Source: a virus (Duplodnaviria; Heunggongvirae; Uroviricota; Caudoviricetes). From it: 64,000 nt of DNA. Below the pieces are notes generated by a model that saw nothing but the letters and a program-made list of their open reading frames with translations, was not told where the DNA came from and searched no databases. The stretch lies in the IMG/VR virus record IMGVR_UViG_3300042892_003817; one strand, given 5' to 3'. This document shows, in pieces, positions 997 to 13,537 of this stretch. Position numbers and translations under genes: made by a program. Position 1 is the stretch's first letter; each line of letters opens with the position of its first letter.

Positions 997-1023
997 AAAA
1001 AAAAAGTTAGTCCGAAGACTAAC
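997..1023 (-). terminator. rho-independent terminator: GTTAGTC-UUCG-GACUAAC hairpin followed by U9 on the minus-strand transcript
   Basis: Perfect 7-bp stem with a UUCG tetraloop and a T9 run; it overlaps the stop codon of ORF 1019..1267. Confidence 0.65.
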
Positions 1024-1267
1024 CCTTAAAAACTTCTAGGTCCTCAAACCTAATCTTCCTATCTACTCTCTTACCTAGCATGTAAGAATAGGTTTCAAAT
1101 CTTACTCTACCTATCCTCTCTACATTCATATGATAGTCCTCCATTACTACTGTACTCCTATCAGATGTTCTAAAGACCTTTGTAATAGATCTTTGATCCC
1201 TATCCAGCTTAAAGTAATTGCCTTTAATCTCGAACTCCACTCCTGCAATAAAATCTTCTCTTGTCAT
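1019..1267 (-). CDS. hypothetical protein (82 aa)
   Basis: ORF preceded by promoter module 1279-1328. Confidence 0.5.
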   Translation of the reverse strand: MTREDFIAGVEFEIKGNYFKLDRDQRSITKVFRTSDRSTVVMEDYHMNVERIGRVRFETYSYMLGKRVDRKIRFEDLEVFKG

Positions 1268-1278
1268 AATGTATCTTG

Positions 1279-1328
1279 TTTTAATTATTGATACCTAAAT
1301 ATAAGAACTCTTATTGAGGATAGCAACT
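1279..1328 (-). promoter_or_regulatory. early promoter module
   Basis: ttaattattgatacctaaatataagaac...agcaact. Confidence 0.55.
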
Positions 1329-1510
1329 CTTTAACTAACTTTCTTCCTCTAAATCTTCTAGCCACATTCCGAAGTCTTGCTCAAATTGCCCATAAGGATG
1401 ATTGATTACCTCAGTAAGATACTTATTAAAATACTCTGCAGCTTCTAATTCATTCCATCCACACTCCCTACAAGTGTTTAATATGCTTTGTGGTATTGTG
1501 ACTTCTATCG

Positions 1511-1744
1511 TCATACTATGATTACTTTTAATGATTTAATATCTACTGAGACTAATTTATTTTCTACTGTTCTTAAGACTGCTTCATCGTTCTGATCAAA
1601 CATCTCTACTAGAACTCCTACCGTTCTTCTTCCAAAGAACTTATCAACTCCTTCATAGACCATCCCTACCATAGGGGCAGTAGACTTAGGAAGCTTACTA
1701 GGAGCTCTTAACTTCCACTTACCCTTTATACATTGCTCACTCAT
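1511..1744 (-). CDS. hypothetical protein (77 aa)
   Basis: ORF whose ATG directly abuts the stop of the upstream ORF (TAGATG), suggesting translational coupling. Confidence 0.45.
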   Translation of the reverse strand: MSEQCIKGKWKLRAPSKLPKSTAPMVGMVYEGVDKFFGRRTVGVLVEMFDQNDEAVLRTVENKLVSVDIKSLKVIIV

Positions 1745-1954
1745 CTAAACTGCCTCACTATCTAATACAGCTTGAACATTCTCTAATGCTATCTTATAAC
1801 CAAAGTTCATAGCCATCTGCATTAATAATATATCCATTGACCCTTGATTAGCTTTTGCAAATGATTCTAGATCTTCTCTCGATTTTGGAGTTGCAACTAT
1901 TCCTCTCTCTAATCCTTTAAACGATGTTTCTAAAAATTGTTTTAAATCTTCCAT
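1745..1954 (-). CDS. hypothetical protein (69 aa)
   Basis: ORF preceded by promoter module 1966-2017. Confidence 0.45.
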   Translation of the reverse strand: MEDLKQFLETSFKGLERGIVATPKSREDLESFAKANQGSMDILLMQMAMNFGYKIALENVQAVLDSEAV

Positions 1955-1965
1955 GATGTTATAGT

Positions 1966-2017
1966 TTTAATTATTAATGATACCTAAAGATAAGAAGAAG
2001 CCTCCGAAGAGGCAACT
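1966..2017 (-). promoter_or_regulatory. early promoter module with a GCCUC-UUCG-GAGGC hairpin embedded in the spacer (2000-2013)
   Basis: atacctaaagataagaag + gcctccgaagaggc + aact. The hairpin probably also terminates upstream gene 2019..2375. Confidence 0.55.
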
Positions 2018-2018
2018 T

Positions 2019-2375
2019 TTATTCATCATCTCTTTCTTCATCAACTCTCTCTAATTCAACTAAATCATCTGCTTCACCAAAGTCCATAAAGTTATTCTCT
2101 AAAGCTTCTCTTAAGTTTTCCAATTGAAGAGGAACATTAGTTACTTCAATTCTATTATTATAACTTATTTCAAACTCTACTGAATCAAAGTCAACAATAT
2201 CCGATTCATTATTATCAGCCCAGCTAATAACTTTATCAATTGCTCTTTCAATATCATCTACTGAAATTACTCTTCCTCCTCCTTCAACTGAATTGATAAG
2301 CTTAATAACATCTTCTCTACTGAAGATTGAAGATGCTGAATTTTCCACTAACTGTAATACGAATTCTTTTTTCAT
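2019..2375 (-). CDS. hypothetical, highly acidic protein (118 aa, D/E-rich C-terminus)
   Basis: ORF with strongly biased acidic composition. Confidence 0.5.
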   Translation of the reverse strand: MKKEFVLQLVENSASSIFSREDVIKLINSVEGGGRVISVDDIERAIDKVISWADNNESDIVDFDSVEFEISYNNRIEVTNVPLQLENLREALENNFMDFGEADDLVELERVDEERDDE

Positions 2376-2385
2376 AATGATTTGT

Positions 2386-2449
2386 TTTTAATTATTGATT
2401 AATTAATTTTGATACCTAAATATATGAACTAACTTTGTAACTAGCAACT
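2386..2449 (-). promoter_or_regulatory. early promoter module
   Basis: gatacctaaatatatgaactaactttgtaactagcaact. Confidence 0.55.
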
Positions 2450-2454
2450 TTATT

Positions 2455-2643
2455 TTAAAAAGATCTTTCCCAATCTCTCTCTTTGACATCATCAATAATG
2501 TCCGAAAGTGTTTGACATAATTCTTCTTCAAAGTCAACATCATCAAGAGATGTTCCTGCTTCTTTGTACTCTGCAATTAGTTCATCAATCTCTTCAATGA
2601 ATCTTGCTTTAATCAACTTTAATTCTTTAAATGCTTTTGCCAT
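2455..2643 (-). CDS. hypothetical protein (62 aa)
   Basis: ORF with promoter module 2655-2703. Confidence 0.45.
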   Translation of the reverse strand: MAKAFKELKLIKARFIEEIDELIAEYKEAGTSLDDVDFEEELCQTLSDIIDDVKERDWERSF

Positions 2644-2707
2644 GATTTTATTTGTTTTAATTATTGATACCTAAATATATGAACTAACTTTGTAACTAGC
2701 AACTATT

Positions 2708-2932
2708 TTATGCAAAAGGATCAACATATTTTTTAACCTCATGCTTCATTACTCTATATAGATTTCCATCCACTCCTTGAACAATCATAGAGACTTTGTT
2801 TATATTTCCAACTGTTCCATAAACTATTCTACGACTTGGAGAATAATTATCATCGTTATTGCTCATAGAGAATTGAACTCTCTCTCCTTGTACAAATGTA
2901 ACTTCTTTTTGATCTTTGATTAATGTAGCCAT
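2708..2932 (-). CDS. hypothetical protein (74 aa)
   Basis: ORF with promoter module 2944-2993. Confidence 0.45.
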   Translation of the reverse strand: MATLIKDQKEVTFVQGERVQFSMSNNDDNYSPSRRIVYGTVGNINKVSMIVQGVDGNLYRVMKHEVKKYVDPFA

Positions 2933-2993
2933 GATTTTATATGTTTTAATTATTGATATCTAAATATATGAAATAACTTTGTAACTAGCAACT

Positions 2994-3404
2994 TTAATCA
3001 TGACTTTTTTCCAACTCTATTAGCTCTTCCCAAAGGTCTTCTACATACCCTCTATCAGCTGAAAACATTAATTGTCTAGTCATTTGATCTTCTAGTCCAA
3101 CCTTCTCTATTATATGTTGCATTGTTTCTCCATCTATCTCCATATGTCTTAACATAGAGATTACTTCTTCTACCATTCCTGGATGTAATTGCATTAACAT
3201 TGTTTCTTCTTGTATGAAGTAAGATTTGAAATAACCTTTCTCACACCAACTAATAACTACCTCTCTTTTATCTTCAGTAGTTAATGTTATGGAATTTGTA
3301 TCATAGACCTCTATAACATCTGCGAAGTCCAATTCAAATTCTCTTTGTGTGCTATTAGAAGCCTGTACGATGTAGTAGTTTACATCTCTAAATAATTTAG
3401 TCAT
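2994..3404 (-). CDS. hypothetical protein (136 aa)
   Basis: ORF. Confidence 0.5.
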   Translation of the reverse strand: MTKLFRDVNYYIVQASNSTQREFELDFADVIEVYDTNSITLTTEDKREVVISWCEKGYFKSYFIQEETMLMQLHPGMVEEVISMLRHMEIDGETMQHIIEKVGLEDQMTRQLMFSADRGYVEDLWEELIELEKSHD

Positions 3405-3430
3405 AGTCTTATTTTTTAAATTAATATTAA

Positions 3431-3613
3431 TTACTCTTGAACATTACATAAATCCTGAGAAAGAATATAGTCATATAAACAATCCATCTTTCTTACAAAA
3501 CTTAAATCAGTCAAATAAGATCGAGATAAAAAACTCTCTAATACATGATCATCTATTCCTCCTAGATCAACATAACCATAATTCAAATCAAAGTACTCTC
3601 TAACTTCTTTCAT
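3431..3613 (-). CDS. hypothetical protein (60 aa)
   Basis: ORF with promoter module 3624-3672. Confidence 0.4.
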   Translation of the reverse strand: MKEVREYFDLNYGYVDLGGIDDHVLESFLSRSYLTDLSFVRKMDCLYDYILSQDLCNVQE

Positions 3614-3740
3614 AATATATCTTTTTAATTATTGATACCTAAATATACGAAATAGATTAGTAACTAGCAACTATTTCACAAACTATTTTAACCCAAAAAG
3701 GCCCCTAATAGGAGCCCTTTCTTCGATCAATAATTAAAAA

Positions 3741-4529
3741 CTATTCAGCTAAAGTGTGCTGAACAATATCTTTACGTAGTCCATGAACTTGATCAATTAT
3801 AGAACTAACGTTTACTTTTTCTTCTTGAGAGGCATTTCCTCCATGAGCCCATTTAAAGACTGCAGTACCTGTCTTTCCTGATTTAGAAATATCAGTTAAT
3901 CTGATGCTTACTACATTCGGAGAGTAGTTCCATTTCAATTGAATATTTCTTCCTTTCTCAAAATCAACTCCCTGCCCTTTCAAATCCATTTCAATCTTTT
4001 CTTTCTCTAAGAAAGTAATCAAATTATCAACTCCACTAATCTCTCTTCCTAAATCTTGCATTTCTTTAAACACTGCATTATATTGCTCCTTGAAAGGAAA
4101 TACAGCTTCATTTGCAGCTTCAACTATTTCATCATGCTTTTCATGAATAATTCCTGCAATCGTTCCTAACATTTGTAATCTCTTCAACTCCCAAGCATCA
4201 ACTCCTTTTGTTGAAGTTGTATAGTAAGATAAATCAATCCCTGTATAAGATCTTTTATCTTTACCTTCTTCAAAATTCCAATTCTCTCTTAAATAAAGGC
4301 TGAATAATTCCTTCTTGTAAGTAAATTCTGGATGAGCCATTTTAAAATAAACAGACCCTCTAGTTACTTCGACTTCTACATCATATGGAAATACTCCATA
4401 AAATCCTACTAAGGCATCTGATAAAGCTTTTTGCTCTCTTACATAGATGTCTCCTCTTTTACTTTCTAATGCTTCTTTCTTAACTGTAAGGATTGCTTTT
4501 TGATCCTCTAATAAATTTAATCTTGTCAT
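3741..4529 (-). CDS. hypothetical protein (262 aa)
   Basis: ORF with promoter module 4541-4590. Confidence 0.55.
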   Translation of the reverse strand: MTRLNLLEDQKAILTVKKEALESKRGDIYVREQKALSDALVGFYGVFPYDVEVEVTRGSVYFKMAHPEFTYKKELFSLYLRENWNFEEGKDKRSYTGIDLSYYTTSTKGVDAWELKRLQMLGTIAGIIHEKHDEIVEAANEAVFPFKEQYNAVFKEMQDLGREISGVDNLITFLEKEKIEMDLKGQGVDFEKGRNIQLKWNYSPNVVSIRLTDISKSGKTGTAVFKWAHGGNASQEEKVNVSSIIDQVHGLRKDIVQHTLAE

Positions 4530-4628
4530 AATGTTATATGTTTTAATTATTGATACCTAAATATACGAACATTAATTTAAACTGGCAACTATTTTAACAA
4601 CTTTTTTTAATTTATTTTTAAGCCCTTT

Positions 4629-4925
4629 TTACAGGGCTTTTAACAATTCTCTTTCAGCATCATTTGAAACTGATTTACTCATTGCTCCGATATTCCACGT
4701 TACAATTTCATCTGATGATAATGGACGATAATATTTCCAATCGTAAATCGCAAATACTTCCCCTTCATCAGTTTCCATATCCCATTCAAAATTCACTTTG
4801 TCATCTCCTGTATTATCGACAATCGTCGGATCTCCGAAAGCTTTTGTTAATTGATCAACTGAAGCTCGAATTGTAATTCCGTGAAATGACGTCCCGTCAG
4901 TGCTTTGATAAGTTTTTTTTGCCAT
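4629..4925 (-). CDS. hypothetical protein (98 aa)
   Basis: ORF with promoter module 4935-4987. Confidence 0.5.
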   Translation of the reverse strand: MAKKTYQSTDGTSFHGITIRASVDQLTKAFGDPTIVDNTGDDKVNFEWDMETDEGEVFAIYDWKYYRPLSSDEIVTWNIGAMSKSVSNDAERELLKAL

Positions 4926-4992
4926 GATTTTATATGTTTTAATTATTGATATCTAAATATATGAACTTTAATTCAATTGAGCAACTTTTTTA

Positions 4993-5265
4993 TTAATTAT
5001 TTTTCATTACTGCTTTTAAAAATTCATCAAGCAAATCTTCATCTGCTCCGAAATATCCCAATTCTTGAAGATTATCATCTTCTAAATCTTTAATAACATC
5101 TCCGAATGATTCGTAAGCGTCAATTTGAAATACTAATTCTCCGAGATTCGAATAATGAGCTCTATATGACAGAGCATCAAAATCTAAATCTTCTTTTCTA
5201 ATATCGTACAAATCATTCGCTTGAGAAATTAAAATCGCTTTTGCTTTTTCTAATAATGTTTTCAT
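4993..5265 (-). CDS. hypothetical acidic protein (90 aa)
   Basis: ORF preceded by promoter module 5275-5326 containing a GCCCC-UUCG-GGGGC hairpin (5309-5322). Confidence 0.5.
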   Translation of the reverse strand: MKTLLEKAKAILISQANDLYDIRKEDLDFDALSYRAHYSNLGELVFQIDAYESFGDVIKDLEDDNLQELGYFGADEDLLDEFLKAVMKNN

Positions 5266-5332
5266 GTTTTTATCTGTTTTAATTATTGATATCTAAAGAT
5301 AAGAAATAGCCCCCGAAGGGGCAACTATTTTA

Positions 5333-5641
5333 CTAGTTATTTTTTAAAAAGTTTTCTTTAACTGAAGTTGGAACATAATAACGATATAGATTTCTACTAT
5401 CGTTTTTCTTTTTCCATAGAAATCTTTTATACAGACCTTTTTGAAGTCCACGTCTTAATAAGTCCGCGTATTTTTTATTTGTTTCAATTTGTCTATAACC
5501 ATATCGAAAATAGTCAAAAACATTTTCTTGAATTTCAGTTTCAGTTTGAAAAGGATTTTCGATTAAATACTGAACAATTTGTTTAACTGAATTTCTTGGT
5601 TGGTCAAAACCTTTTCCCATTAACATAGTTGAATAACCCAT
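5333..5641 (-). CDS. hypothetical basic protein (102 aa)
   Basis: ORF with promoter module 5652-5702. Confidence 0.5.
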   Translation of the reverse strand: MGYSTMLMGKGFDQPRNSVKQIVQYLIENPFQTETEIQENVFDYFRYGYRQIETNKKYADLLRRGLQKGLYKRFLWKKKNDSRNLYRYYVPTSVKENFLKNN

Positions 5642-5852
5642 AGTTTATATTGTTTTAATTATTGATACCTAAATATAAGAACTAAAATTTAAACGAGCAA
5701 CTTTTTATACAACTTTTTTTAATTAATTTAAAGATAAATTTGCTTGGGCCATTCTAACAATTAATTCCTGAGGATTAAAGGACATAAAAGAAACTCCTTT
5801 TAATTCTACTTCATAGTAGATAATTCCTGGTAGTACTATTTTTTTCATATCT

Positions 5853-6227
5853 CTATTCGTTTAATAAGAAAGCTTTATCTGCCCAAGTCTTAGCATTTAC
5901 AGCTTTATATTGATTGTGATCCATTAGATTTGTATTATAGAACAATTGATTGATTGTTCCTACCTCTACCTTCTCAGCTAACTTCTCATCTAATAAGATT
6001 ACCTTTGTACCTTTCTTAGCAAATACTGTTGTCCAATAGTTAGTCCCTTTACCTTTGAACTGGATAGTCTGAAGAGCTCCTTTCTTCCATCTATTAAGAG
6101 AAGGTATATCAGAACCTATCTCTGTAGCTATCATAAAGCCTGCTGGTACTTTTGTAATGGCCTGGAAGATACCCTCTCTATCTCCTATCCAATTTACTAC
6201 CGTTAAATCTTTGATGTTGTTTATCAT
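5853..6227 (-). CDS. hypothetical protein (124 aa)
   Basis: ORF with promoter module 6237-6288. Confidence 0.5.
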   Translation of the reverse strand: MINNIKDLTVVNWIGDREGIFQAITKVPAGFMIATEIGSDIPSLNRWKKGALQTIQFKGKGTNYWTTVFAKKGTKVILLDEKLAEKVEVGTINQLFYNTNLMDHNQYKAVNAKTWADKAFLLNE

Positions 6228-6336
6228 TTTTTCTATGTTTTAATTATTGATACCTAAATATACGGACTTTATACATACGGTCCAACTCTTATACGTTATT
6301 TATACTCATTATAAATTAAAAAAAAGTTACTAAAAT

Positions 6337-6375
6337 AGTTGCTAGTAACAAAGATCGTTCGTATCTTTAGGTATG
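6337..6375 (+). promoter_or_regulatory. promoter module in PLUS orientation (AGTTGCTAGTAACAAAGATCGTTCGTATCTTTAGGTATG), the only plus-strand copy in the window
   Basis: Exact reverse-complement arrangement of the module used by minus-strand genes. No plus-strand ORF follows it. Confidence 0.5.
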
Positions 6376-6385
6376 TTAGAAGGGA

Positions 6386-6520
6386 ATACGGGGCCTGGCT
6401 TTGAAAGAGAGTCGGAAGAGTAGACGGGCCGGTACGCCATGTTCGTTACTTAAAGCAAAGCTTTAACTTAAACTGTTACTTTAACTTAAAGTGATGCTTT
6501 AACTGAATATTTTACTTAAA
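6386..6520 (+). ncRNA. candidate non-coding or antisense transcript driven by the plus-orientation promoter
   Basis: Segment downstream of the plus promoter is locally GC-rich (gggaatacggggcctggc...gacgggccggtacgcc), has no ORF, and is followed by ttaaagc/ctttaact repeats. Confidence 0.25.
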
Positions 6521-6527
6521 GGAAAGC

Positions 6528-6680
6528 TTTAGATAAAAGGAAAGGGCCCTTGTGAGGCCCCTGCTTGGAAGAGGAGTGCTTCTCCTTCCTGGTGTAGGTC
6601 TTCTTAGACTTCTGAATGGTATGCCGTGAGGCTGCCCATCGCTCTTGCATTGTAATCTGAATCTGTTTCATAGGTATAGG
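6528..6680 (-). CDS. small basic protein (about 50 aa, MKQIQITMQERWAASRHTIQKSKKTYTRKEKH...)
   Basis: ATG at 6678-6680 immediately downstream of ORF 6682..6892. Below the 60-aa cutoff of the ORF track. Confidence 0.3.
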
Positions 6681-6681
6681 T

Positions 6682-6892
6682 TTAATAAAAATACATATTG
6701 TGAACCGTCTGAATAGGAAGCTTAAATTTCTTACCCACTGAGATATTACTCCATTGGTTCCTATTATACATAGTAGGAGTTACTTCAAGTAAGCACCAAA
6801 GAGAAGTTACCGTAAGCAATTTAGCCCTCAGTGTAGGAGAATTATTACATGAACAATCCTTTCCTATTACCTTATTTAATTCCTTTACCATA
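6682..6892 (-). CDS. hypothetical protein (70 aa). The track ORF 6682..7101 is trimmed here to the first ATG downstream of promoter module 6905-6947
   Basis: The upstream part of the track ORF translates the iteron array and promoter module and is implausible as coding sequence. Confidence 0.4.
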
Positions 6893-6904
6893 TGATTATT
6901 TGTT

Positions 6905-6947
6905 TTTATATACCTAAAGATAAGAACCATAGGCCATATAAGCAACT
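6905..6947 (-). promoter_or_regulatory. early promoter module
   Basis: tatacctaaagataagaaccataggccatataagcaact. Confidence 0.5.
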
Positions 6948-7006
6948 CTTTTATAGGCTTTTTACCCCCGAAGGGGATAAGTACCTGGTTTCTACCGGGG
7001 AAAGAA

Positions 7007-7140
7007 ACGGGTTCCAAACAGGTAAAGAGAACGGGTCTCAATTGGGTCACTAGACGGGTAACAAAACGGGTAGCTAGAACGGGTTTGTAACGGGTAACCA
7101 ATCGGGTTACTAGAGAGTGAAACGGGGCTATAGAACGGGT
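7007..7140. repeat. iteron array 1: about 11 copies of (G/A)AACGGGT-like heptamers at roughly 11-12 bp centre-to-centre spacing
   Basis: acgggt at 7007, 7031, 7055, 7066, 7079, 7090, 7135 plus degenerate copies (acaggt, ttgggt, tcgggt, acgggg). Confidence 0.6.
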
Positions 7141-7410
7141 ATCTACTATAGGTTTTCCTTATTATAGAAAAAAACTATTAAGGAGACACACCCGCCACAT
7201 TTTTCCTATCCTTATTTTACCTAGCCTTATCCTCTTTCTTACACATCGTATATACTGTACAGTACCTTTTCTTACCTAGTACTCTATGTCTTTATACTCT
7301 TTGTATGGTTTTTCTACCCTTTATGTTTAATCAAAGTCCTTCACCTTTTACTATGTATCTCAGTAGTTCTCTCTATGTCTCTCCTTATATCTCCCGTACG
7401 TGATACGTAT
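7141..7410. other. 270-bp non-coding polypyrimidine (C/T-rich on the plus strand) AT-rich tract between the two iteron arrays; candidate DNA-unwinding or origin region
   Basis: Strong strand-compositional asymmetry and no ORF, flanked by iterons. Confidence 0.4.
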
Positions 7411-7416
7411 GTATAA

Positions 7417-7468
7417 ACGGGTATCGAACGGGTAGAGAAACGGGTATGGAATGGGTCTATGAATGGGT
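7417..7468. repeat. iteron array 2: five (A)ACGGGT/ATGGGT copies at 11-bp spacing
   Basis: acgggt at 7417, 7428, 7440 and atgggt at 7452, 7463. Confidence 0.55.
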
Positions 7469-7648
7469 CTCTCGCCATCTTTCCAATAGCATTTCTCCTA
7501 TCTTCATCCTGTCTTCTAGGCCCTTTAATTCCTTTATTACCTTAGGTGTCTGTTCTCTTTCCTTTAATTGTTCTCTCCTCTTTACTACCTTTCGTATTAT
7601 ATGATTTGAATTAGGATCCTTTAACTTATTTATTCCCCATACTTCCAT
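7457..7648 (-). CDS. hypothetical protein (63 aa)
   Basis: ORF. Confidence 0.35.
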   Translation of the reverse strand: MEVWGINKLKDPNSNHIIRKVVKRREQLKEREQTPKVIKELKGLEDRMKIGEMLLERWRETHS

Positions 7649-7649
7649 A

Positions 7650-7901
7650 CTATAGAATAATTGCCTTTACTATATGATAATCACTATTAGTACTGCCGTA
7701 CATATCATCTACTCTTTCATGTGTACCGTAATACCATTCTGTATTTACATCTAAGGCTACATGTATGATTGCTGGAGTATTATTATCTATACCATTTCCT
7801 ATTACCATATCATTTACTCCTCCTTCATATCCTTTTGTCATTACCTTTATGTCTTGGTCTTCTATCTTACTTAGACTTTCAATTAGTTCTTTTACGGTCA
7901 T
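7650..7901 (-). CDS. hypothetical protein (83 aa)
   Basis: ORF. Confidence 0.4.
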   Translation of the reverse strand: MTVKELIESLSKIEDQDIKVMTKGYEGGVNDMVIGNGIDNNTPAIIHVALDVNTEWYYGTHERVDDMYGSTNSDYHIVKAIIL

Positions 7902-8113
7902 ATCTTTTTAATTTGTATTTGCCAAACTTCTTTTACCTTTATATGTCCATGTTCATCTACCTTACCTATATGTTTTAATAAGGCCATATGACTATTCTTT
8001 TTTACTAGAGTGAATGTCTTTGGATCATAATAGTCTCTAAGGGTAATAATATAACCTATCCTTCTACATATTCTCCAATAAAGATTTCCTATTAGCTTTT
8101 TCATATTATTCAT
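7898..8113 (-). CDS. hypothetical protein (71 aa)
   Basis: ORF with a 4-bp overlap to its neighbour. Confidence 0.4.
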   Translation of the reverse strand: MNNMKKLIGNLYWRICRRIGYIITLRDYYDPKTFTLVKKNSHMALLKHIGKVDEHGHIKVKEVWQIQIKKI

Positions 8114-8324
8114 CCGCTGCTAAAAATATTGATACTATAAGAGCCATTACCATATACAACCTAACATAGGCCCATTCAATATTTGGTTCAAGAATACTCC
8201 ATGTCATAAAACATCCTATTGCATATAATACTATACAAAGTGCTAATGGCAAGGCTATAAAGAACCCTAAATAAATTTCTAAAAACTTTTTCATATCTCT
8301 TCCAATGTCATTATTGATATACAA
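8106..8324 (-). CDS. hypothetical membrane protein (72 aa, 2 TM)
   Basis: ORF with hydrophobic segments. Confidence 0.4.
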   Translation of the reverse strand: MYINNDIGRDMKKFLEIYLGFFIALPLALCIVLYAIGCFMTWSILEPNIEWAYVRLYMVMALIVSIFLAADE

Positions 8325-8485
8325 TGAGGGAAGTTATCATAGTCTCTGAGTATAACAAGGCCCTGAGATTCTACCACCTGTACGGCTATTCCTTCTATAA
8401 TCCTTCCTACACCTTTTCTAGAGTTGAAAGCTATTTTAACTCCCTTATACTTTTTCTTATACAATTCAACTTCCTGTATCTTCAT
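8291..8485 (-). CDS. hypothetical protein (64 aa)
   Basis: ORF. Confidence 0.35.
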   Translation of the reverse strand: MKIQEVELYKKKYKGVKIAFNSRKGVGRIIEGIAVQVVESQGLVILRDYDNFPHCISIMTLEEI

Positions 8486-8622
8486 CCTCTATAATTGTTA
8501 GTAAGTAATTAACTCCTTGTTCTGATTTCTTAACCTCTCCTGAGGCTATTAATTCCTCTACCTCTCTGGCTCTTCCATGAGACATAAGAGCAATGGTCTG
8601 TTCCATGTATATTACTTTCATA

Positions 8623-8877
8623 CTATTGTATCATTTCAAATACATGCCACACAAAATATCCTTCCATGTATGTACAAATGTATTTCATATTGTCTTCCAC
8701 TTCCCATCCTGTACCAACAGTGGATATAAATCTATCCTCTAATACATTCTCTGGATCTACTAAAGCCCATAGCATTGGTCTCCCATCTTGAATCTGTACT
8801 GTAAGTATCTCTGCCCCTTTTGGAAGCTTCATACTAGCATCTTGTGATCTTAATTCGTACTTGTAAATTGTTTTCAT
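8623..8877 (-). CDS. hypothetical protein (84 aa)
   Basis: ORF. Confidence 0.4.
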   Translation of the reverse strand: MKTIYKYELRSQDASMKLPKGAEILTVQIQDGRPMLWALVDPENVLEDRFISTVGTGWEVEDNMKYICTYMEGYFVWHVFEMIQ

Positions 8878-8927
8878 ATAGTTTTTATTTAGATTTTACC
8901 TCCAACAACCTGGAGGGTTGGGAGAAA

Positions 8928-8974
8928 TTGCGCGTGACACCTTCGGTGAGTAGTCTTGCGCCCCCTCCCCTTCG
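8928..8974. repeat. GC-rich 47-bp element, copy A: TTGCGCGTGACACCTTCGGTGAG...CGCCCCCTCCCCT
   Basis: Near-identical second copy at 30887-30927. Contains a CACC-UUCG-GUG hairpin and a G/C-rich run in an otherwise AT-rich genome. Confidence 0.5.
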
Positions 8975-8977
8975 TTC

Positions 8978-9076
8978 TTAAATCGAATCAATCTGCTCTT
9001 GCGTTAAACTATCTCTCCATTCGTTGATGTAAGTCTCTTCCTCATCAAGCAGTACTTGTAATTCTTCTTCTGTCAT
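8978..9076 (-). CDS. small ORF (32 aa, MTEEELQVLLDEEETYINEWRDSLTQEQIDSI)
   Basis: ATG at 9074-9076; lies directly upstream of GC-rich element A. Below the track cutoff. Confidence 0.25.
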   Translation of the reverse strand: MTEEELQVLLDEEETYINEWRDSLTQEQIDSI

Positions 9077-9092
9077 AGCTCTTATCCTCTAG

Positions 9093-9341
9093 TTATACAA
9101 ATACTTCATCAGTACCATCTACCAGTATACTAATACCCTGGCATACTACAACGTACTTATCCATTCCATTGTATCGGATCATTTCACATTTAACCTTAGT
9201 CTGCTTACCGCTTACTGATAGTCCATTCATCTTAAACTTATCACCTGCTTTTAAATCTTGTACTTTCATAACCTTTATTTTTAATTGATTTCTATACCTA
9301 AATATACGAAAAAAGAGCTGCGCTAGCAACTCTTTTATCAA
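9093..9341 (-). CDS. hypothetical protein (82 aa)
   Basis: ORF. Confidence 0.45.
   Translation of the reverse strand: MIKELLAQLFFRIFRYRNQLKIKVMKVQDLKAGDKFKMNGLSVSGKQTKVKCEMIRYNGMDKYVVVCQGISILVDGTDEVFV
9276..9331 (-). promoter_or_regulatory. early promoter module (variant with agagctgcgctagcaact)
   Basis: tctatacctaaatatacgaaaaaagagctgcgctagcaact. Confidence 0.5.
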
Positions 9342-9360
9342 TTATTTTTAATATATTTTA

Positions 9361-10197
9361 CTATTTTATAGTCATCATGAAGTTTCCTCCACCGCTTGTA
9401 ATATACTGAGGTACTTTAGATCCACCTTTTCTCCATGCTTCAATCCATTGTTGTTGCAATAGCATTGGAGTTAATGTTCTCTGCTTTAAAGTATTTGCTT
9501 CTGATTCAGCTCTTGCTCTTGTAAGTGTTGATTGAGCATCTCCTTCTGCTTCTGCTACTTTAATCTTTGCTTCAGCCTCTGCTTGTTTAACTCTATTCTC
9601 AGCCATTAAAGCCTTCTGTACTGCATTATTCTTAGCATTAATAGCATTCTTGAATGATGTAGGATATTCTAGATTAGTTGTAAATTGATCCAATACAAAT
9701 CCTTCTGGCTCTAATTGTTTTCTTAATGTAGCTTTTACTTTATTATCAAATGCTTCTCTACTTGAGATTAATTGATCAGCTGTATAGCCATTGGTAACGA
9801 TTCTAAATGCTTCTGTTACTGCTGTCTTAAGGAATCCATTCTCAATACCATCTAAGTCTTTTCTATATTTTGCAAAGATCTGTGTGGCTTTATCTGGATT
9901 AATTCTATAGTTGACAATTGGACTAACATGAAACTCTGATCCATCTTTACTATTCACTACAAATGATCCTTCGTCAGTATACTCTTTATGACGAATATTG
10001 ATTGGAAATTCAAAGATGTTTGTTGTGATTGGATTATAAAAGACTGTACCTGTACACTCTGTTACTCCACTTACCCCTCTTCCTGTACCAAACTTGTTTA
10101 CTTTGATACCAATGTTACCTGAGTCAATGTTCTCACATGACATGGTTACTGCAAAAACTACTAGGATTAATCCTACTGCTACTAAAATTCTGTTCAT
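9361..10197 (-). CDS. SPFH/band-7 (prohibitin/HflK-like) domain protein with signal peptide and lipoprotein-like cysteine (278 aa)
   Basis: N-terminal MNRILVAVGLILVVFAVTMSC, plus AEAEAKIKVAEAEGDAQS repeats typical of the SPFH coiled-coil region. Confidence 0.5.
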   Translation of the reverse strand: MNRILVAVGLILVVFAVTMSCENIDSGNIGIKVNKFGTGRGVSGVTECTGTVFYNPITTNIFEFPINIRHKEYTDEGSFVVNSKDGSEFHVSPIVNYRINPDKATQIFAKYRKDLDGIENGFLKTAVTEAFRIVTNGYTADQLISSREAFDNKVKATLRKQLEPEGFVLDQFTTNLEYPTSFKNAINAKNNAVQKALMAENRVKQAEAEAKIKVAEAEGDAQSTLTRARAESEANTLKQRTLTPMLLQQQWIEAWRKGGSKVPQYITSGGGNFMMTIK

Positions 10198-10228
10198 AAC
10201 TTCTTTGTTTAAATTTGATTTATAATTA

Positions 10229-10279
10229 ATTGTTTATTATTATACCTAAATATATGAAATATATTCTTAGGAGGCAACT
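10229..10279 (-). promoter_or_regulatory. early promoter module
   Basis: tatacctaaatatatgaaatatattcttaggaggcaact. Confidence 0.5.
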
Positions 10280-10667
10280 ATTCTAGCCCTAATTTTTTTC
10301 TTTTATCTGTTCTATAACTAGAATTTTCAATGTTATCTTTAAATAACTTCTTAACTCTACTATAAGATTTACTCCATATTGGAATTACTCCTACATCAGT
10401 GATATAATATGGAAATATAATAGAGTACTGTGTTTGATAAATGGAAGGATTACTATGATGTCTAATTGTATACCCTTTTACATTAAGAACATATTTGTCA
10501 TTCCATCTTAAAGTTATTCCATTTATAAGATTTTCATTTTCAATTCTATCTAAATAATCTGAGATGTCTTTGTCTGAGATTGGAGATCCTAAATCAAATG
10601 CTGTAACAGTTTCTATAATTCCTAAAACTAATAAGCCTACAATTAATATTACTAATAATACTACCAT
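10278..10667 (-). CDS. hypothetical membrane-anchored protein (129 aa)
   Basis: N-terminal TM segment. Confidence 0.45.
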   Translation of the reverse strand: MVVLLVILIVGLLVLGIIETVTAFDLGSPISDKDISDYLDRIENENLINGITLRWNDKYVLNVKGYTIRHHSNPSIYQTQYSIIFPYYITDVGVIPIWSKSYSRVKKLFKDNIENSSYRTDKRKKLGLE

Positions 10668-10669
10668 AA

Positions 10670-10903
10670 CTATTCTTCTTTTTCCTGTTTAACCTCTTCT
10701 TTTACTTCTTCCTCAGGCTTGATTATTTTCATTATATACAATCCTAAGAATCCAAATGCTACAAATACTATTCCAAGTATCAATACTCCTAAGTTGAATA
10801 GATAACTATCTGGCCTATTCAGCAGATACATTCCTAGATCTACTAACTGAACTAATCCTAATCCTAGGAAAAATCCTACTAAAACTTTAATAACTGTCTT
10901 CAT
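10670..10903 (-). CDS. hypothetical membrane protein (77 aa, 2 TM, KEE-rich tail)
   Basis: ORF. Confidence 0.45.
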   Translation of the reverse strand: MKTVIKVLVGFFLGLGLVQLVDLGMYLLNRPDSYLFNLGVLILGIVFVAFGFLGLYIMKIIKPEEEVKEEVKQEKEE

Positions 10904-11106
10904 TACTTTGAACTTGAGTTATTATTTCTAAATAAAATTCCACATAGGATATTAATTCCTAATGCTTGCCAAAAGCCAATTGGATTAAATCCATCTGCTG
11001 CTCCTACTAAAGCGTTATTCCAAAGCCATTGTGTTGGCCATGCTAATAAAATCGCTACTACAACTAGCATTCCAAATGCTGCTAATACTATTCCTAATTT
11101 TTCCAT
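10903..11106 (-). CDS. hypothetical membrane protein (67 aa)
   Basis: ORF. Confidence 0.4.
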   Translation of the reverse strand: MEKLGIVLAAFGMLVVVAILLAWPTQWLWNNALVGAADGFNPIGFWQALGINILCGILFRNNNSSSK

Positions 11107-11108
11107 AA

Positions 11109-11351
11109 CTATAATTCGTTTTCTGGTGTTCCGGTTAATGAATCTACTTCTACGTATCTTGAATTGACTTGCTCTTTAAGAACCTCTCTAAGGTATTTTA
11201 CATTATCAACTCCTCCTACTCCTCTAATCGCTCTCTGAGGATCTTTATAGAGCTTATCATGAGTCTTTCCGTTCTTTTTAATTACTTGAATGTAATTTCC
11301 TTTTAAGTCTGCCATCAATTCCTTTGGTGTTTTTACTTTGCCTTCTGCCAT
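11109..11351 (-). CDS. hypothetical protein (80 aa)
   Basis: ORF. Confidence 0.45.
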   Translation of the reverse strand: MAEGKVKTPKELMADLKGNYIQVIKKNGKTHDKLYKDPQRAIRGVGGVDNVKYLREVLKEQVNSRYVEVDSLTGTPENEL

Positions 11352-11352
11352 T

Positions 11353-11592
11353 TTAGTTTATATAAATTAAATTTCCTTGTTCGTTTTCTATTTTAGTTAC
11401 TTCCATTTTCTTATCCATATAGTCTAGAATAAAACCTCCATGCATTTGGAAGTACATATTAAAGGCCTGATGAAAAGCTTCAAAGGGAGGAGTCATTCTA
11501 TCCTTATCCTTATGCTCTAGGTAGTATTGATAGAACCAGCCAAGGTCATATTGGCCAGTTCTTCTCATCTGTAGATATTTCTCTCTATCCAT
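11353..11592 (-). CDS. hypothetical protein (79 aa)
   Basis: ORF. Confidence 0.45.
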   Translation of the reverse strand: MDREKYLQMRRTGQYDLGWFYQYYLEHKDKDRMTPPFEAFHQAFNMYFQMHGGFILDYMDKKMEVTKIENEQGNLIYIN

Positions 11593-12416
11593 TAGTTGAT
11601 CAATGCTGTAGCTAATTTGAATAGCTTTTGATTAACCTCTAGATCTTTCTCGAATGATTTAATCTTTCTAACCTTTCTTACTTTAGCACCATTCAATGCT
11701 GCTGAATATCCTCCTTGAGTAATCTTCTCTTGGATTACATTAAATACTTTCCAAAGGTCATTTCCTTTATCAGCATCTCTTGTAGGAGTTAAAACGTCCT
11801 GGATAGTCTCTTCATCCCATTCAGCATCGATTCTATTTGTTCTCAATTGCATTGCATCGATAGCCAATTGTCTTTGCTCTACCGGAGACAATTCTCTCAA
11901 CTGCATTTGATTTAAAATCATTACCTTATTAGGAAGATCAGCTACTGCTTGTGCTACTACTCCTCTTAATTCTTCGAAGGTATATCCTGTGTGACGTATT
12001 CTGAATGCTGAGAATTCCTCATCAGCTACTACCAATCCATTTGAACATACCAATCTGTAGATTCCAATTCTAAACTGAAAAGAATTAAATCCATCATGAG
12101 AGTTCGTTAAAATGATTCTTGGAAAAGCATCATCACCATTCTTACCTTTAATCATAAGGTCTGGATTCTGAAATGATACCATGTGCTTTGAGAAGATTGT
12201 AGTCTTATCAGACTTTCTAGCCTTTCTTTGAGAGGCTGTTACTGGAAGCCATCCTAACTTTTCTAAGTCATCGATGATAGTCTCAGTATTAACATGTAAG
12301 TATTTACTACTTACTTTATCGCTTGTTGGCTCTGTAGCAAATGCTACTGGTGCTAAAGCTTTTACTTGATCTTTTGTAAGGTAAGAATCTAAACCTGTAG
12401 TGAATTTTGATAACAT
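11592..12416 (-). CDS. DUF932 (phage/plasmid-like protein, TIGR03299-type) family protein (274 aa)
   Basis: ILTNSHDGFNSF and RLVCSNG motifs characteristic of DUF932. Confidence 0.55.
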   Translation of the reverse strand: MLSKFTTGLDSYLTKDQVKALAPVAFATEPTSDKVSSKYLHVNTETIIDDLEKLGWLPVTASQRKARKSDKTTIFSKHMVSFQNPDLMIKGKNGDDAFPRIILTNSHDGFNSFQFRIGIYRLVCSNGLVVADEEFSAFRIRHTGYTFEELRGVVAQAVADLPNKVMILNQMQLRELSPVEQRQLAIDAMQLRTNRIDAEWDEETIQDVLTPTRDADKGNDLWKVFNVIQEKITQGGYSAALNGAKVRKVRKIKSFEKDLEVNQKLFKLATALIN

Positions 12417-12424
12417 AACTTTTT

Positions 12425-12479
12425 GTTTTTAATTGATTTCTATACCTAAATATACGAACTAACTTCGTAACTAGCAACT
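12425..12479 (-). promoter_or_regulatory. early promoter module
   Basis: tctatacctaaatatacgaactaacttcgtaactagcaact. Confidence 0.55.
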
Positions 12480-12500
12480 AATTCACAAACTTTTTTTAAT

Positions 12501-12755
12501 TTATTTTACAAGGCCTAAATTCTTAGCTCTGTAATATCCTACTTCTTTTCCTGTTGCAGGATTTAAGAACATTTGTTTTGTTTTCGGAAGATTATTCTTA
12601 ATTTTTTCCTTTTTATTGAACTCATCTAAGTATTCTTTAGGATATTCGAACTCAGCTTTTATCATTCCATTTACAATACTTGCACCGTTATATGTATAAG
12701 TTGACTTAATTCCAGTCTTCTCACATACAAATACTTTCACATAAGGCTTTATCAT
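12501..12755 (-). CDS. hypothetical protein (84 aa)
   Basis: ORF. Confidence 0.45.
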   Translation of the reverse strand: MIKPYVKVFVCEKTGIKSTYTYNGASIVNGMIKAEFEYPKEYLDEFNKKEKIKNNLPKTKQMFLNPATGKEVGYYRAKNLGLVK

Positions 12756-13045
12756 GCTTTCAGTTCTTTGATTAGTAAATAAGTATCAATTGCTTCATCT
12801 CCCATCTCCCACTCGCTGTAATGCTTCAAGCAATTCTCTAGAGCTGTAATCCATTCTCTTTTTGAAAGTGATATTTCAAAAGAAGTCTCCATTCCATCCA
12901 TAAATATTTCAAATAAGATAGCTGTCCTCTTCTTACTCTTCATAGCTTCTTCAATACCTTCTCTGATATTGTTTGTCATATCGACTGATCTTTCTCTGAA
13001 GATAGATTCTAATTCTTCTAGAGATTCTATTTCTAATTTTCTCAT
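12752..13045 (-). CDS. hypothetical protein (97 aa)
   Basis: ORF with 4-bp overlap. Confidence 0.45.
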   Translation of the reverse strand: MRKLEIESLEELESIFRERSVDMTNNIREGIEEAMKSKKRTAILFEIFMDGMETSFEISLSKREWITALENCLKHYSEWEMGDEAIDTYLLIKELKA

Positions 13046-13371
13046 ATACGATTACTATTTGCTTCTGATTTTTGATTGACTGGCATTTTTGGATTAGTTA
13101 CAATAGTCTCTGTATCCATTCTAATTACCTCTAGATTAGTCTGAAGGATATAAACTGGGCCGTTATAGTCATACGTTCTAAATTCTATATCATTAAAGCT
13201 ATCTCCAATACCTGGCTGCTTTAAAGGCTCAGTTATTCTTCTCTTACCATCGAATGATCTGAATTCATTACAAGTAGTTCTATACCAATTTCCTTTGATA
13301 CATACTTCTAATACACCTGAGGTATTAAAATCGTGAATCTTTTTGACTGTAGCGCCTGTCTTTTCTGCCAT
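13042..13371 (-). CDS. hypothetical protein (109 aa)
   Basis: ORF with promoter module 13378-13427. Confidence 0.45.
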   Translation of the reverse strand: MAEKTGATVKKIHDFNTSGVLEVCIKGNWYRTTCNEFRSFDGKRRITEPLKQPGIGDSFNDIEFRTYDYNGPVYILQTNLEVIRMDTETIVTNPKMPVNQKSEANSNRI

Positions 13372-13537
13372 AACCTTTTTTTAATTTCTATACCTAAATA
13401 TACGAACAAAGATTCGTACTAGCAACTATTTTCCAAACAATTTCCAAAAAGAATTACTGATTGTTTTCTCTCTCAGCTTTTCATTCTGCTCTGATTGCTT
13501 TACAAGCTTGTTGGCTACAATTCTTTCTCTGGTAGGT

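What the first reader, a model, noticed from the sequence alone, without database searches (positions are those of the whole stretch)
6960..7480. Candidate replication origin: two iteron arrays in 11-bp helical phase flanking a 270-bp polypyrimidine tract
A (G/A)AACGGGT-like heptamer occurs about 11 times between 7007 and 7140 and 5 times between 7417 and 7468. Centre-to-centre spacing is almost exactly 11-12 bp, so all sites lie on one face of the helix.

Between the arrays (7141-7410) is an ORF-free, AT-rich, strongly C/T-biased tract typical of DNA-unwinding elements. The whole region is non-coding: the ORF-track call 6682..7101 simply translates the repeats.

This architecture matches iteron-type origins and suggests a phage-encoded initiator that binds AACGGGT. 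An alternative is a high-affinity array for a transcription factor.
Basis: seen in the sequence. Interest (0 to 1): 0.65.

Follow-up and report, generated by a model that had tools for sequence, protein, structure and literature searches.

The report
Conserved protein-binding repeat arrays in phage
Two same-direction arrays of a 12-bp repeat (core AACGGGT) flank a non-coding spacer of almost invariant length in a clade of Flavobacterium phages; this is clearly a real, conserved DNA element that some protein must bind, but whether it starts replication, marks DNA for packaging or regulates transcription cannot be decided from sequence.

Summary
The repeats are real. There are 12-13 units at 7006-7153 and 5 units at 7416-7468. 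All point the same way, and the exact core occurs 9 times in 470 bp against 1.8 expected in the whole 64 kb.

The same module occurs once per genome in Flavobacterium phage immuto (88% identical) and in about 25 other environmental relatives. Array A has 9-14 scored units in complete copies and array B 5-8. The repeat unit is RAACGGGTnwCwA. The last-A to first-B distance is 282 bp in 12 of the 21 relatives where both arrays were scored.

- Spacing averages 11.9 bp, not 10.5, so the sites do not share one face of B-DNA.
- The spacer is not AT-rich: its GC equals the window mean and its duplex stability is average.
- It is only moderately pyrimidine-biased (66% against 58%).

The spacer has no ORF, no codon periodicity, no Rfam match and no RNA covariation. 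No initiator gene lies nearby. No skew switch exists, but every gene is co-oriented, so that test says little.

The closest architecture I verified is the T7 concatemer junction (5 heptamers, terminal repeat, 12 heptamers, early promoters). However, the relative's terminase is T4-type, which predicts headful packaging.

Best guess: a replication-origin nucleoprotein site (about 0.35). Packaging and regulatory readings remain open.

The parts
7416..7468 (+). Array B: 5 units (AACGGGT x3, AATGGGT x2), spacing 11, 12, 11, 12 bp. It comes first in the direction of transcription (minus strand).
   Evidence: Relatives have 5-8 units.
7141..7415 (.). Non-coding spacer or core. The conserved block 7144-7416 is exactly 273 bp in 5 of 6 aligned relatives. 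It is 66% pyrimidine on the + strand and has average GC.
   Evidence: No Rfam match.
7006..7153 (+). Array A: 12-13 units of RAACGGGTnwCwA, spacing 11-13 bp, in the same orientation as array B.
6965..6976 (.). G+C hairpin (CCCCC GAA GGGG on the + strand; a UUCG-loop hairpin in minus-sense RNA), preceded on the + strand by a T run. It is present in all six relatives aligned, with different stem sequences.
   Evidence: Read directly. It is not an intrinsic terminator on either strand.
6910..6950 (-). A copy of the phage's repeated Bacteroidetes-type promoter (minus strand: GTTGCT, about 19 nt, TATCTTTAGGTAT). It is the first promoter after the module.
   Evidence: (family D4).
6682..6891 (-). 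Probable 69-aa gene. It is replaced by an unrelated gene in immuto. It is the real 3' part of the ORF call 6682..7101.
   Evidence: found in 12 relatives.
6516..6671 (-). A 51-aa basic protein gene, found in all 28 sequences with enough left flank. Where it can be measured, its start lies 559-609 bp left of the spacer anchor. Function unknown.
7457..7648 (-). A 63-aa ORF whose stop codon lies inside array B. No terminator follows it, so read-through into the module is likely.
7650..7901 (-). An 83-aa gene, the usual immediate upstream neighbour of array B (found in the window and 22 other sequences). No family assignment.

Best explanation
The module is a cis-acting DNA site on which a sequence-specific protein assembles cooperatively. 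The protein is probably phage-encoded and was not identified.

**Proposed structure**
- One subunit or domain binds per 12-bp unit (core CGGGT plus a C at +9 and an A at +11).
- The 11.9-bp period exceeds the B-DNA repeat, so a continuous protein array would have to wind around or wrap the DNA rather than sit on one face.
- Two such polar arrays, 5-8 and about 9-14 units long, bracket a spacer of almost invariant length and hold it in a defined structure.

**Proposed use**
The most likely use is as the phage's origin of DNA replication, in the middle of the early gene region.
- Early transcripts read into the spacer.
- This gives a purine-rich RNA (66% purine) on a pyrimidine-rich template, the composition that favours a persistent RNA-DNA hybrid.
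- The hybrid could prime synthesis as at T4 oriF/oriG or ColE1, while the flanking protein arrays open or delimit the region and recruit the phage DnaB-type helicase.

**Shown versus inferred**
- Shown: the arrays, their conservation, the non-coding spacer of near-constant length, its strand bias, and the transcriptional context.
- Inferred: protein binding, wrapping, R-loop priming, and the replication role itself.
For: - The arrays are far beyond chance. They are unique in the 160-kb genome of the relative.
- The architecture is conserved in immuto and about 25 distinct IMG/VR and metagenome relatives. Units are gained and lost in whole-unit steps.
- The unit logo spans the whole 12 bp.
- The spacer block is 273 bp in 5 of 6 aligned relatives. 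The last-A to first-B distance is 282 bp in 12 of 21 scored relatives.
- A distant relative, L326, keeps the CGGGT core, a 283-bp spacer and 66% pyrimidine, at only 44% spacer identity.
- The spacer is not coding, not a known RNA, and shows no covariation.
- The module sits inside the region dense in host-type early promoters: 14 in 111-6911 and 5 in 9295-14616.
- 23 of 24 relatives, including the window, have no terminator-like hairpin upstream of array B, so transcription can enter.
- The phage encodes DnaB-type helicase, DnaG primase, RecA-like recombinase, SSB and split PolA, but no annotated initiator. This fits a transcript-primed origin.
- Repeat clusters at phage and satellite origins are an established pattern (for example PMC7145576).
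Against: - There is no AT-rich or thermodynamically weak segment.
- No recognisable initiator or DNA-binding gene lies among the neighbours scanned. The conserved 51-aa neighbour gave only a low-confidence model (pLDDT 64).
- The replication genes lie about 60 kb away in immuto.
- No skew switch occurs at the site, although that test is weak here.
- Classical iterons are 17-22 bp at about 22-bp spacing (from memory).
- The spacer's purine/pyrimidine bias is only 8 points above the genome-wide coding bias.
- immuto itself has a strong terminator just upstream of array B.
- The closest verified architectural match, T7, is not an origin.
Confidence: 0.35

Rival explanations
1. The module is a packaging or terminus site. 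There are two versions.
- (a) A T7-style concatemer junction, in which the spacer is a short direct terminal repeat collapsed by assembly and the arrays correspond to T7's SRR and SRL.
- (b) A pac site, where an oligomeric small terminase binds the arrays and the first headful cut is made in the spacer.
For: **T7, checked directly**
- The terminal repeat is 160 bp.
- It is followed by 12 CCTAAAG-type heptamers, mostly at 12-13-bp spacing (175-338).
- It is preceded by 5 such units (39621-39706).
- All units point the same way, and the host-type early promoters A1-A3 follow.
- The last-SRR to first-SRL distance across a junction is about 252 bp.

**This module**
- It has 5 units, then 282 bp, then 12-13 units, then the first of 14 early promoters.
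- Like T7, the genome is transcribed entirely in one direction.
- The element occurs once per genome.
- About 12 units would match a ring-shaped small terminase with one unit per subunit (inference).
Against: - The large terminase of the relative is T4 gp17-type. It matches Pfam Terminase_6N at 6e-16 and is 32-35% identical to RM378 and T4-like cyanophages over about 90% of its length. The portal, protease and capsid genes are T4-like too.
- Terminase clade predicts packaging mode, and the T4 clade is headful without fixed ends (PMC5000459).
- The terminase gene is about 52 kb from the module, whereas known pac sites lie in or beside terS (from memory).
- Contigs run through the module, and contig ends near it are scattered: 41, 79, 209 and 297 bp to the left of the anchor, and 45, 62, 116, 126 and 198 bp to the right.
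- Early-type promoters occur on both sides of the module.
Confidence: 0.22
2. The module is a transcriptional boundary or regulatory site. A phage or host DNA-binding protein coats the arrays to block read-through from upstream genes into the downstream early genes, to silence or time the adjacent early promoters, or to titrate a host factor.
For: - The module lies exactly between the end of an upstream gene and the first of a dense series of promoters.
- No terminator-like hairpin precedes it in 23 of 24 relatives, so something else would have to stop read-through.
- immuto, which does have a terminator there, keeps the arrays.
- A separate operator-like set of four inverted repeats lies 500 bp downstream.
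- Known array-binding repressors such as ParR on parC and omega on heptads bind tandem short repeats (from memory).
Against: - This does not explain why a 273-bp non-coding spacer keeps its length and much of its sequence between the arrays.
- Seventeen or more sites are far more than operators need.
- No promoter matching the phage's own consensus lies inside the module.
- If a terminator sufficed, the arrays would be dispensable in immuto.
Confidence: 0.2
3. The module acts at the RNA level. It is transcribed as a long 3' untranslated region or non-coding RNA carrying 17 or more ACCCGUU motifs. The RNA ends at the UUCG hairpin and sequesters an RNA-binding protein, in the manner of CsrB or a TRAP-binding leader.
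For: - Read-through from upstream genes is likely.
- A conserved stable hairpin with a UUCG loop in the minus-sense RNA closes the module.
- Repeated short motifs on one strand only are typical of protein-sponge RNAs (from memory).
Against: - There is no Rfam match.
- None of 57 predicted pairs shows a compensatory change, and the covariation term is unfavourable.
- The tight 11-13-bp spacing fits duplex-DNA geometry better than RNA sponges, whose motif spacing is irregular (from memory).
- immuto terminates transcription just before array B.
Confidence: 0.08
4. The module is a partition (centromere-like) site of the ParR/parC or TubR/tubC kind.
For: It has two blocks of 11-12-bp direct repeats in one orientation, as in R1 parC (2 x 5 x 11 bp) and pBtoxis tubC (12-bp iterons in two blocks) (from memory).
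Against: - No ParM, ParA, TubZ or ParR-like gene appears among the neighbours or in the relative's annotation.
- The phage looks strictly lytic, with no integrase or plasmid functions annotated.
- In parC the arrays flank a 39-bp promoter core (from memory), not a 273-bp spacer.
Confidence: 0.04

Closest known systems
Bacteriophage T7 concatemer junction (short-repeat arrays SRR and SRL flanking the 160-bp terminal repeat)
   Same: - Two same-sense arrays of a heptamer at 12-13-bp spacing.
- The short array (5 units) is upstream and the long array (12 units) downstream of a unique segment about 250 bp away.
- Strong host-type early promoters follow.
- The genome is transcribed in one direction.

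The T7 anatomy was checked in sequence.
   Different: - The heptamer sequence is unrelated (CCTAAAG against AACGGGT).
- T7 also has copies inside the repeat; here the spacer has none.
- The T7 phage is a 40-kb podovirus with a T7-type terminase and fixed ends. This is a roughly 160-kb myovirus with T4-type terminase and head genes.
- The function of the T7 arrays is itself unresolved (from memory).
Iteron-type replication origins (lambda, P1, and plasmids RK2, R6K and pPS10; also the 11-bp repeats bound by pMV158 RepB)
   Same: A cluster of direct repeats in one orientation, in non-coding DNA, conserved with whole-unit indels, and present once per genome.
   Different: - The units are 12 bp rather than 17-22 bp.
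- There are two arrays flanking a spacer rather than one array beside an AT-rich element.
- There is no AT-rich or unstable segment.
- No adjacent initiator gene was recognised.
Phage T4 oriE '12-nt iterons'
   Same: [quoted passage not shown]
   Different: - The only tandem array found near T4 oriE lies inside gene 5. It has period 24 at L131 5427-5558, within the CDS at 3960-5687.
- It most likely reflects the repeats of the gp5 beta-helix (the link to the beta-helix is from memory).
- No role in oriE activity has been shown.
- The arrays here are non-coding.
ParR/parC (plasmid R1) and TubR/tubC centromeres
   Same: Two blocks of 11-12-bp direct repeats. These are coated cooperatively by a small DNA-binding protein that forms a helical or wrapped complex (from memory).
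   Different: No partition NTPase or adaptor gene nearby, a lytic phage, and a 273-bp conserved spacer instead of a promoter core.
Phage phi29 protein p6 nucleoprotein complex at the replication origins
   Same: A 12-bp-per-monomer (24-bp) binding periodicity that forces right-handed wrapping and helps open the origin (from memory). The 11.9-bp period here would impose a comparable geometry.
   Different: p6 reads bendability rather than a sequence motif, and acts at the ends of a protein-primed linear genome.

Membership tests
Iteron-type replication origin | Tandem direct repeats in one orientation that serve as initiator binding sites | tested here: inconclusive
   The repeats are present, significant and conserved. 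Binding by an initiator cannot be tested in silico.
Iteron-type replication origin | Adjacent AT-rich, easily melted DNA-unwinding element | tested here: not met
   The spacer GC is 34.3% against a window mean of 34.2%. The 60-bp duplex stability is within 1 SD of the mean, and the least stable 60-mers of the window lie elsewhere (10201-10213 and about 49870).
Iteron-type replication origin | Cognate initiator gene next to or overlapping the iterons | tested here: not met
   Seven neighbouring ORFs scanned with Pfam and ten with PHROGs gave no DNA-binding or replication family. The conserved 51-aa neighbour has no family and a low-confidence model. A novel initiator is not excluded.
Iteron-type replication origin | Replication starts there (copy-number peak, skew switch, autonomous replication) | tested here: inconclusive
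   There is no skew switch in the window or in the complete genome of the relative. 4-fold-site GC skew has no significant structure. All genes are co-oriented, so skew is uninformative. Coverage and cloning tests cannot be done here.
T7-group concatemer junction (SRR-TR-SRL) | Two same-sense heptamer arrays at about 12-13-bp spacing flanking a unique 160-230-bp segment, followed by early promoters | tested here: met
   Window; T7.
T7-group concatemer junction (SRR-TR-SRL) | The flanked segment is a direct terminal repeat present at both physical genome ends | not testable with these tools
   This needs read-level data. Contigs pass through the module and nearby contig ends are scattered, which neither proves nor excludes it.
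T7-group concatemer junction (SRR-TR-SRL) | Terminase of the short-terminal-repeat (T7) clade | tested here: not met
   The relative's TerL is T4 gp17-type. Terminase clades track packaging mode (PMC5000459).
pac site of headful phages (P1 or SPP1 type) | Clusters of short repeats on both sides of a cleavage region | tested here: inconclusive
   The form is compatible. Cleavage cannot be tested.
pac site of headful phages (P1 or SPP1 type) | Located within or beside the small-terminase gene | tested here: not met
   TerL is at 119.0-120.6 kb and the module at 66.3-66.9 kb in immuto.
ParR/parC or TubR/tubC centromere | Arrays adjacent to the operon encoding the adaptor and its actin- or tubulin-like NTPase | tested here: not met
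   There is no such family among the neighbours or in the relative's annotation.
Structured non-coding RNA (any Rfam family) | Match to a covariance model, or conserved base pairs with compensatory changes | tested here: not met
   No Rfam match at E<=1 in 5500-9000. None of 57 predicted pairs shows a compensatory change.

The most novel reading that the evidence does not exclude
A myovirus with a T4-type head and terminase nevertheless uses a T7-style fixed junction. The 273-bp spacer would be a short terminal repeat, or a unique packaging-initiation site, bracketed by heptamer arrays that an oligomeric packaging protein wraps.

In the close relative every G is replaced by a 7-deazaguanine derivative. 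The GGG-centred units would then be read on hypermodified DNA, or only on not-yet-modified DNA. That would give the phage a way to tell its own DNA states apart.
Probability: 0.12. Interest if true: 0.7.

Novelty: new variant of a known kind. Interest (0 to 1): 0.45.

Why it matters
- Replication origins and packaging signals are unknown for almost all environmental large phages, including this widespread freshwater and marine Flavobacterium phage clade.
- The module is a sharply defined, single-copy, conserved cis-element with a simple repeat code. It therefore gives a direct experimental handle: pull-down of the binding protein, deletion, coverage mapping.
- It is also the closest parallel I know to T7's still-unexplained short-repeat arrays, but in an unrelated phage type. 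Solving one may explain the other.
- The relative's DNA carries no ordinary guanine, so whatever reads the GGG core must cope with, or exploit, major-groove modification.

Tried and rejected
1. **Scan for ACGGGT x3 in viral contigs.** It gave more than 119 hits, many at contig ends, which at first looked like support for genome termini. Inspection showed that nearly all are 6-bp coding tandem repeats (ACGGGT/CCGGGT)n in high-GC contigs. The end enrichment is an assembly artefact, so I rejected it.

2. **Scan for AACGGGT x3 in bacterial genomes and viral contigs.** The hits were mostly coding 12-bp repeats. No host plasmid or chromosomal site pointed to a binding-protein family. The scan did yield three more distant phage relatives (L326, L328, L329).

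3. **Module near contig ends.** Seven of 11 long contigs have the module 0.6-1.75 kb from an end. The most likely cause is the near-identical promoter repeats just downstream breaking assemblies, not physical ends.

4. **T4 oriE iterons as a precedent.** The only tandem array found there lies inside gene 5 coding sequence.

5. **Coding potential of the spacer, including a recoded frame.** There are stops of all three kinds in all six frames, and variable sites fall 36/38/42 by codon phase.

6. **Conserved RNA structure.** None was found.

7. **The conserved 51-aa neighbour as a ribbon-helix-helix array binder.** There is no Pfam hit and only 9 database homologues. The AlphaFold model has pLDDT 64 with one short helix. 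Unsupported.

8. **Search for an equivalent module in Microcystis phage Mel-JY01 (TerL 51% identical).** I found only a palindrome-rich non-coding region of a different design.

9. **Literature.** Searches for a description of these repeats or of immuto's genome ends found nothing.

Full report
**What the window is.** The 64-kb window has about 34% GC, and every ORF of 150 aa or more is on the minus strand. Its closest described relative is Flavobacterium phage vB_FspM_immuto, a 160-kb myovirus from the Baltic Sea. Identity is about 88% where the two align. I fetched the whole immuto genome. All but a handful of its small ORFs are on one strand. It has a T4-like head module (portal gp20, protease, capsid gp23) and a large terminase. 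It also has a split family-A polymerase, DnaB-type helicase, DnaG primase, RecA-like recombinase and SSB, and a 7-deazaguanine DNA-modification pathway. In immuto all guanine is replaced by 7-(formylamino)methyl-7-deazaguanine (PMC10516641). The window encodes a DpdA 96% identical to immuto's.

**The observation.** AACGGGT occurs 10 times in the window against 1.77 expected, and no shuffle reaches that count. Nine copies lie between 7006 and 7445, all on the + strand. Counting one-mismatch variants, array A has 12-13 units between 7006 and 7153. Array B has 5 units between 7416 and 7468.

Successive units are 11, 12 or 13 bp apart. The mean is 11.75 bp in the window. Pooled over relatives it is 11.90 +/- 0.74 (112, 162 and 72 spacings of 11, 12 and 13 bp). 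This is not the 10.5-bp B-DNA repeat, so the sites rotate by roughly 45 degrees per unit and do not share one face of the helix.

The pooled logo is R-A-A-C-G-G-G-T-n-w-C-w-A. The GG of the core is invariant and the flanking G and T are 95-98% conserved, C is 71% at +9 and A is 78% at +11. The whole 12 bp is therefore constrained, not only a heptamer.

**The spacer.** The 275 bp between the arrays (7141-7415) has no ORF conserved with immuto. It has stop codons of all three kinds in all six frames. Variable alignment columns fall 36/38/42 over the three codon phases.

It is not AT-rich. Its GC is 34.3% against a window mean of 34.2%, and duplex stability is average. It is 66.4% pyrimidine on the + strand. 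That is the 99th percentile of 265-bp windows, but only 8 points above the 58% background that follows from all genes being on the minus strand. Rfam gives no match at E<=1. A five-sequence consensus fold has no compensatory pair among 57 predicted pairs.

**Conservation.** immuto has the same layout: array A with 13 units, spacer, array B with 8-9 units. In immuto the motif cluster is unique in 160 kb.

Pattern scans of IMG/VR and JGI/ENA metagenomes with a conserved spacer block returned 10 and 22 loci. After removing duplicates, about 25 distinct versions show the same plan:
- Array A has 9-14 scored units in complete copies.
- Array B has 5-8 units.
- All units point the same way.
- Spacings are 11-13 bp.
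- Differences between relatives are whole-unit insertions or deletions.

The conserved spacer block is exactly 273 bp in five of six aligned relatives and 272 bp in the sixth. The distance from the last A unit to the first B unit is 282 bp in 12 of the 21 relatives where both arrays were scored. It is 294-295 bp in five relatives whose last A unit lies one unit further from the spacer anchor.

A more distant relative, L326, keeps 11 strict 12-bp units with core GTCGGGT, a 283-bp spacer and 66% pyrimidine, while spacer identity has dropped to 44%. Motif core, polarity, spacer length and strand bias are therefore the durable features.

**Context.** Reading in the direction of transcription (minus strand), the order is as follows:
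- An 83-aa gene, present in the window and 22 other sequences. In the window an extra 63-aa ORF follows it, and its stop codon lies inside array B.
- Array B, the spacer, then array A.
- A conserved G+C hairpin, CCCC-UUCG-GGGG in RNA sense. It is not a terminator on either strand.
- A copy of the phage's repeated Bacteroidetes-type promoter.
- A variable small gene.
- A 51-aa basic protein gene found in every sequence with enough flank.
- A terminator.
- Four TTAAAG/CTTTAA inverted repeats.

This order rests.

The promoter repeat occurs 14 times in 111-6911 and 5 times in 9295-14616, so the module lies inside the early region. Only immuto has a terminator-like hairpin just upstream of array B. 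The other 23 of 24 sequences scanned have none, so transcription probably enters the module. Neighbouring ORFs have no Pfam or PHROG assignment that suggests DNA binding or replication. The 51-aa protein has nine database homologues, no domain, and a low-confidence model.

**Testing the origin idea.** Cumulative GC skew is monotonic through the site in the window and across the whole immuto genome. At 4-fold degenerate sites the detrended cumulative GC skew has a range no larger than gene-order shuffles give: 331 of 500 shuffles reach it.

But in a genome with all genes co-oriented, skew is dominated by transcription. A unidirectional or rolling-circle mode would also leave no switch. I therefore treat the test as uninformative.

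Against an origin:
- There is no unwinding element.
- There is no identifiable initiator.
- The replication genes are far away.

For an origin:
- The module is single-copy and non-coding.
- It has repeats.
- It lies in the early region.
- It is likely to be transcribed.
- Minus-sense RNA over the spacer is purine-rich on a pyrimidine-rich template. That is the most stable class of RNA-DNA hybrid (established knowledge, from memory). It would suit an R-loop-primed origin of the T4 oriF/oriG kind described in PMC3016281.

The often-quoted 12-nt iterons at T4 oriE are a poor precedent. The only tandem array found there lies inside gene 5, and no role has been shown for the iterons.

**A closer architectural match.** I checked phage T7 directly.
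- Its 160-bp terminal repeat is followed by 12 CCTAAAG-type heptamers, mostly at 12-13-bp spacing.
- It is preceded by 5 such units in the same orientation.
- The last upstream unit and the first downstream unit are about 252 bp apart across a concatemer junction.
- Host-type early promoters follow.
- The genome is transcribed in one direction.

The module here (5 units, 282 bp, 12-13 units, early promoters, one-directional genome) matches this point for point.

However, the relative's large terminase is T4 gp17-type (Pfam Terminase_6N). Its best characterised matches are RM378 and T4-like cyanophages, at 32-35% identity over about 90% of the protein. Terminase clade predicts packaging mode, and the T4 clade packages by the headful without fixed ends (PMC5000459). 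Contigs run through the module, and nearby contig ends are scattered rather than stacked at one base. The module is 52 kb from the terminase gene. A fixed-end or pac reading is therefore possible but disfavoured.

**False leads.** Two broad motif scans mostly found coding hexamer or dodecamer repeats in unrelated organisms. The apparent enrichment of the module near contig ends is best explained by the repeated promoters breaking assemblies. Mel-JY01, the nearest phage by terminase outside the clade, has no equivalent module.

**Verdict.** The element is real, conserved and almost certainly a protein-binding platform on double-stranded DNA. Its anatomy is two polar arrays of 12-bp units holding a non-coding, strand-asymmetric spacer of almost invariant length. 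My confidences:

| Reading | Confidence |
|---|---|
| Replication origin | about 0.35 |
| Packaging or terminal junction | 0.22 |
| Transcriptional boundary or regulatory site | 0.20 |
| RNA sponge | 0.08 |
| Partition site | 0.04 |

I found no published description of it. I rate it a new variant of a known kind (repeat-array cis-elements) and of moderate interest. The interest is raised by the T7 parallel and by the fact that the GGG core must be read on DNA in which, in the close relative, guanine is fully hypermodified.

Noticed in passing
window 6446-6532: Four TTAAAG-N3-7-CTTTAA inverted repeats at an 18-bp period. They are identical in immuto (L001 6208-6296). They lie between a terminator hairpin (6542-6562, minus strand) and the next promoter, and look like an operator array for a dimeric regulator.
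   Followed up: partly
window 6516-6671 (minus strand): A 51-aa very basic protein (MKQIQITMQERWAASRH..KSKKTYTRKEKH..), found in all 28 sequences with enough left flank. Where it can be measured, its start lies 559-609 bp left of the spacer anchor. It has only 9 database homologues, no domain, and a low-confidence AlphaFold model with one short helix. Its 3' end overlaps a terminator hairpin.
   Followed up: yes
window 111-14655, also 51975, 54783, 60799: A 40-100-bp intergenic repeat carrying a Bacteroidetes-type promoter (minus strand: GTTGCT, about 19 nt, TATATTTAGGTAT). It precedes most small genes. Two copies (1980-2020 and 5289-5329) have a G+C hairpin in the promoter spacer. These repeats probably break metagenome assemblies next to the module.
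   Followed up: partly
window 38398-39192 (minus strand) and neighbours: A DpdA DNA-guanine transglycosylase 96% identical to that of immuto, whose DNA has all G replaced by fdPreQ1. The window phage presumably carries the same hypermodification.
   Followed up: partly
whole window; immuto genome L124-L127: Essentially every gene is on one strand across about 160 kb, which is unusual for a phage with a T4-like structural module. 4-fold-site GC skew shows no large-scale structure. AT skew at 4-fold sites drops to about 0 in the early small-gene block (immuto 68-76 kb).
   Followed up: partly
L131 5427-5558 (T4 genome 79.4 kb): The only tandem array found near T4 oriE has period 24 and lies inside gene 5. 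It most likely corresponds to the gp5 beta-helix repeats (that link is from memory). This may explain why no replication role has been found for the oriE '12-nt iterons'.
   Followed up: partly
L161 34620-35050 (Microcystis phage Mel-JY01, 134.6-135.1 kb): A 560-bp non-coding region after a strong terminator, packed with TACCCCCGGGGGGT-type palindromes and ATACCCC repeats. It is a different design of repeat-rich intergenic element in the nearest phage by terminase similarity.
   Followed up: no
L321 8071-8417 and L343 3139-3175: An unrelated low-GC (26-28%) viral contig type carries AAACGGGTAGGC repeats as two inverted arrays about 300 bp apart. The same core motif is used in a different arrangement.
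   Followed up: no
L328, oriented 10932-12031: One relative has two extra AACGGGT-type units inside the spacer, replacing part of the conserved block. This shows that the spacer can tolerate units internally.
   Followed up: no
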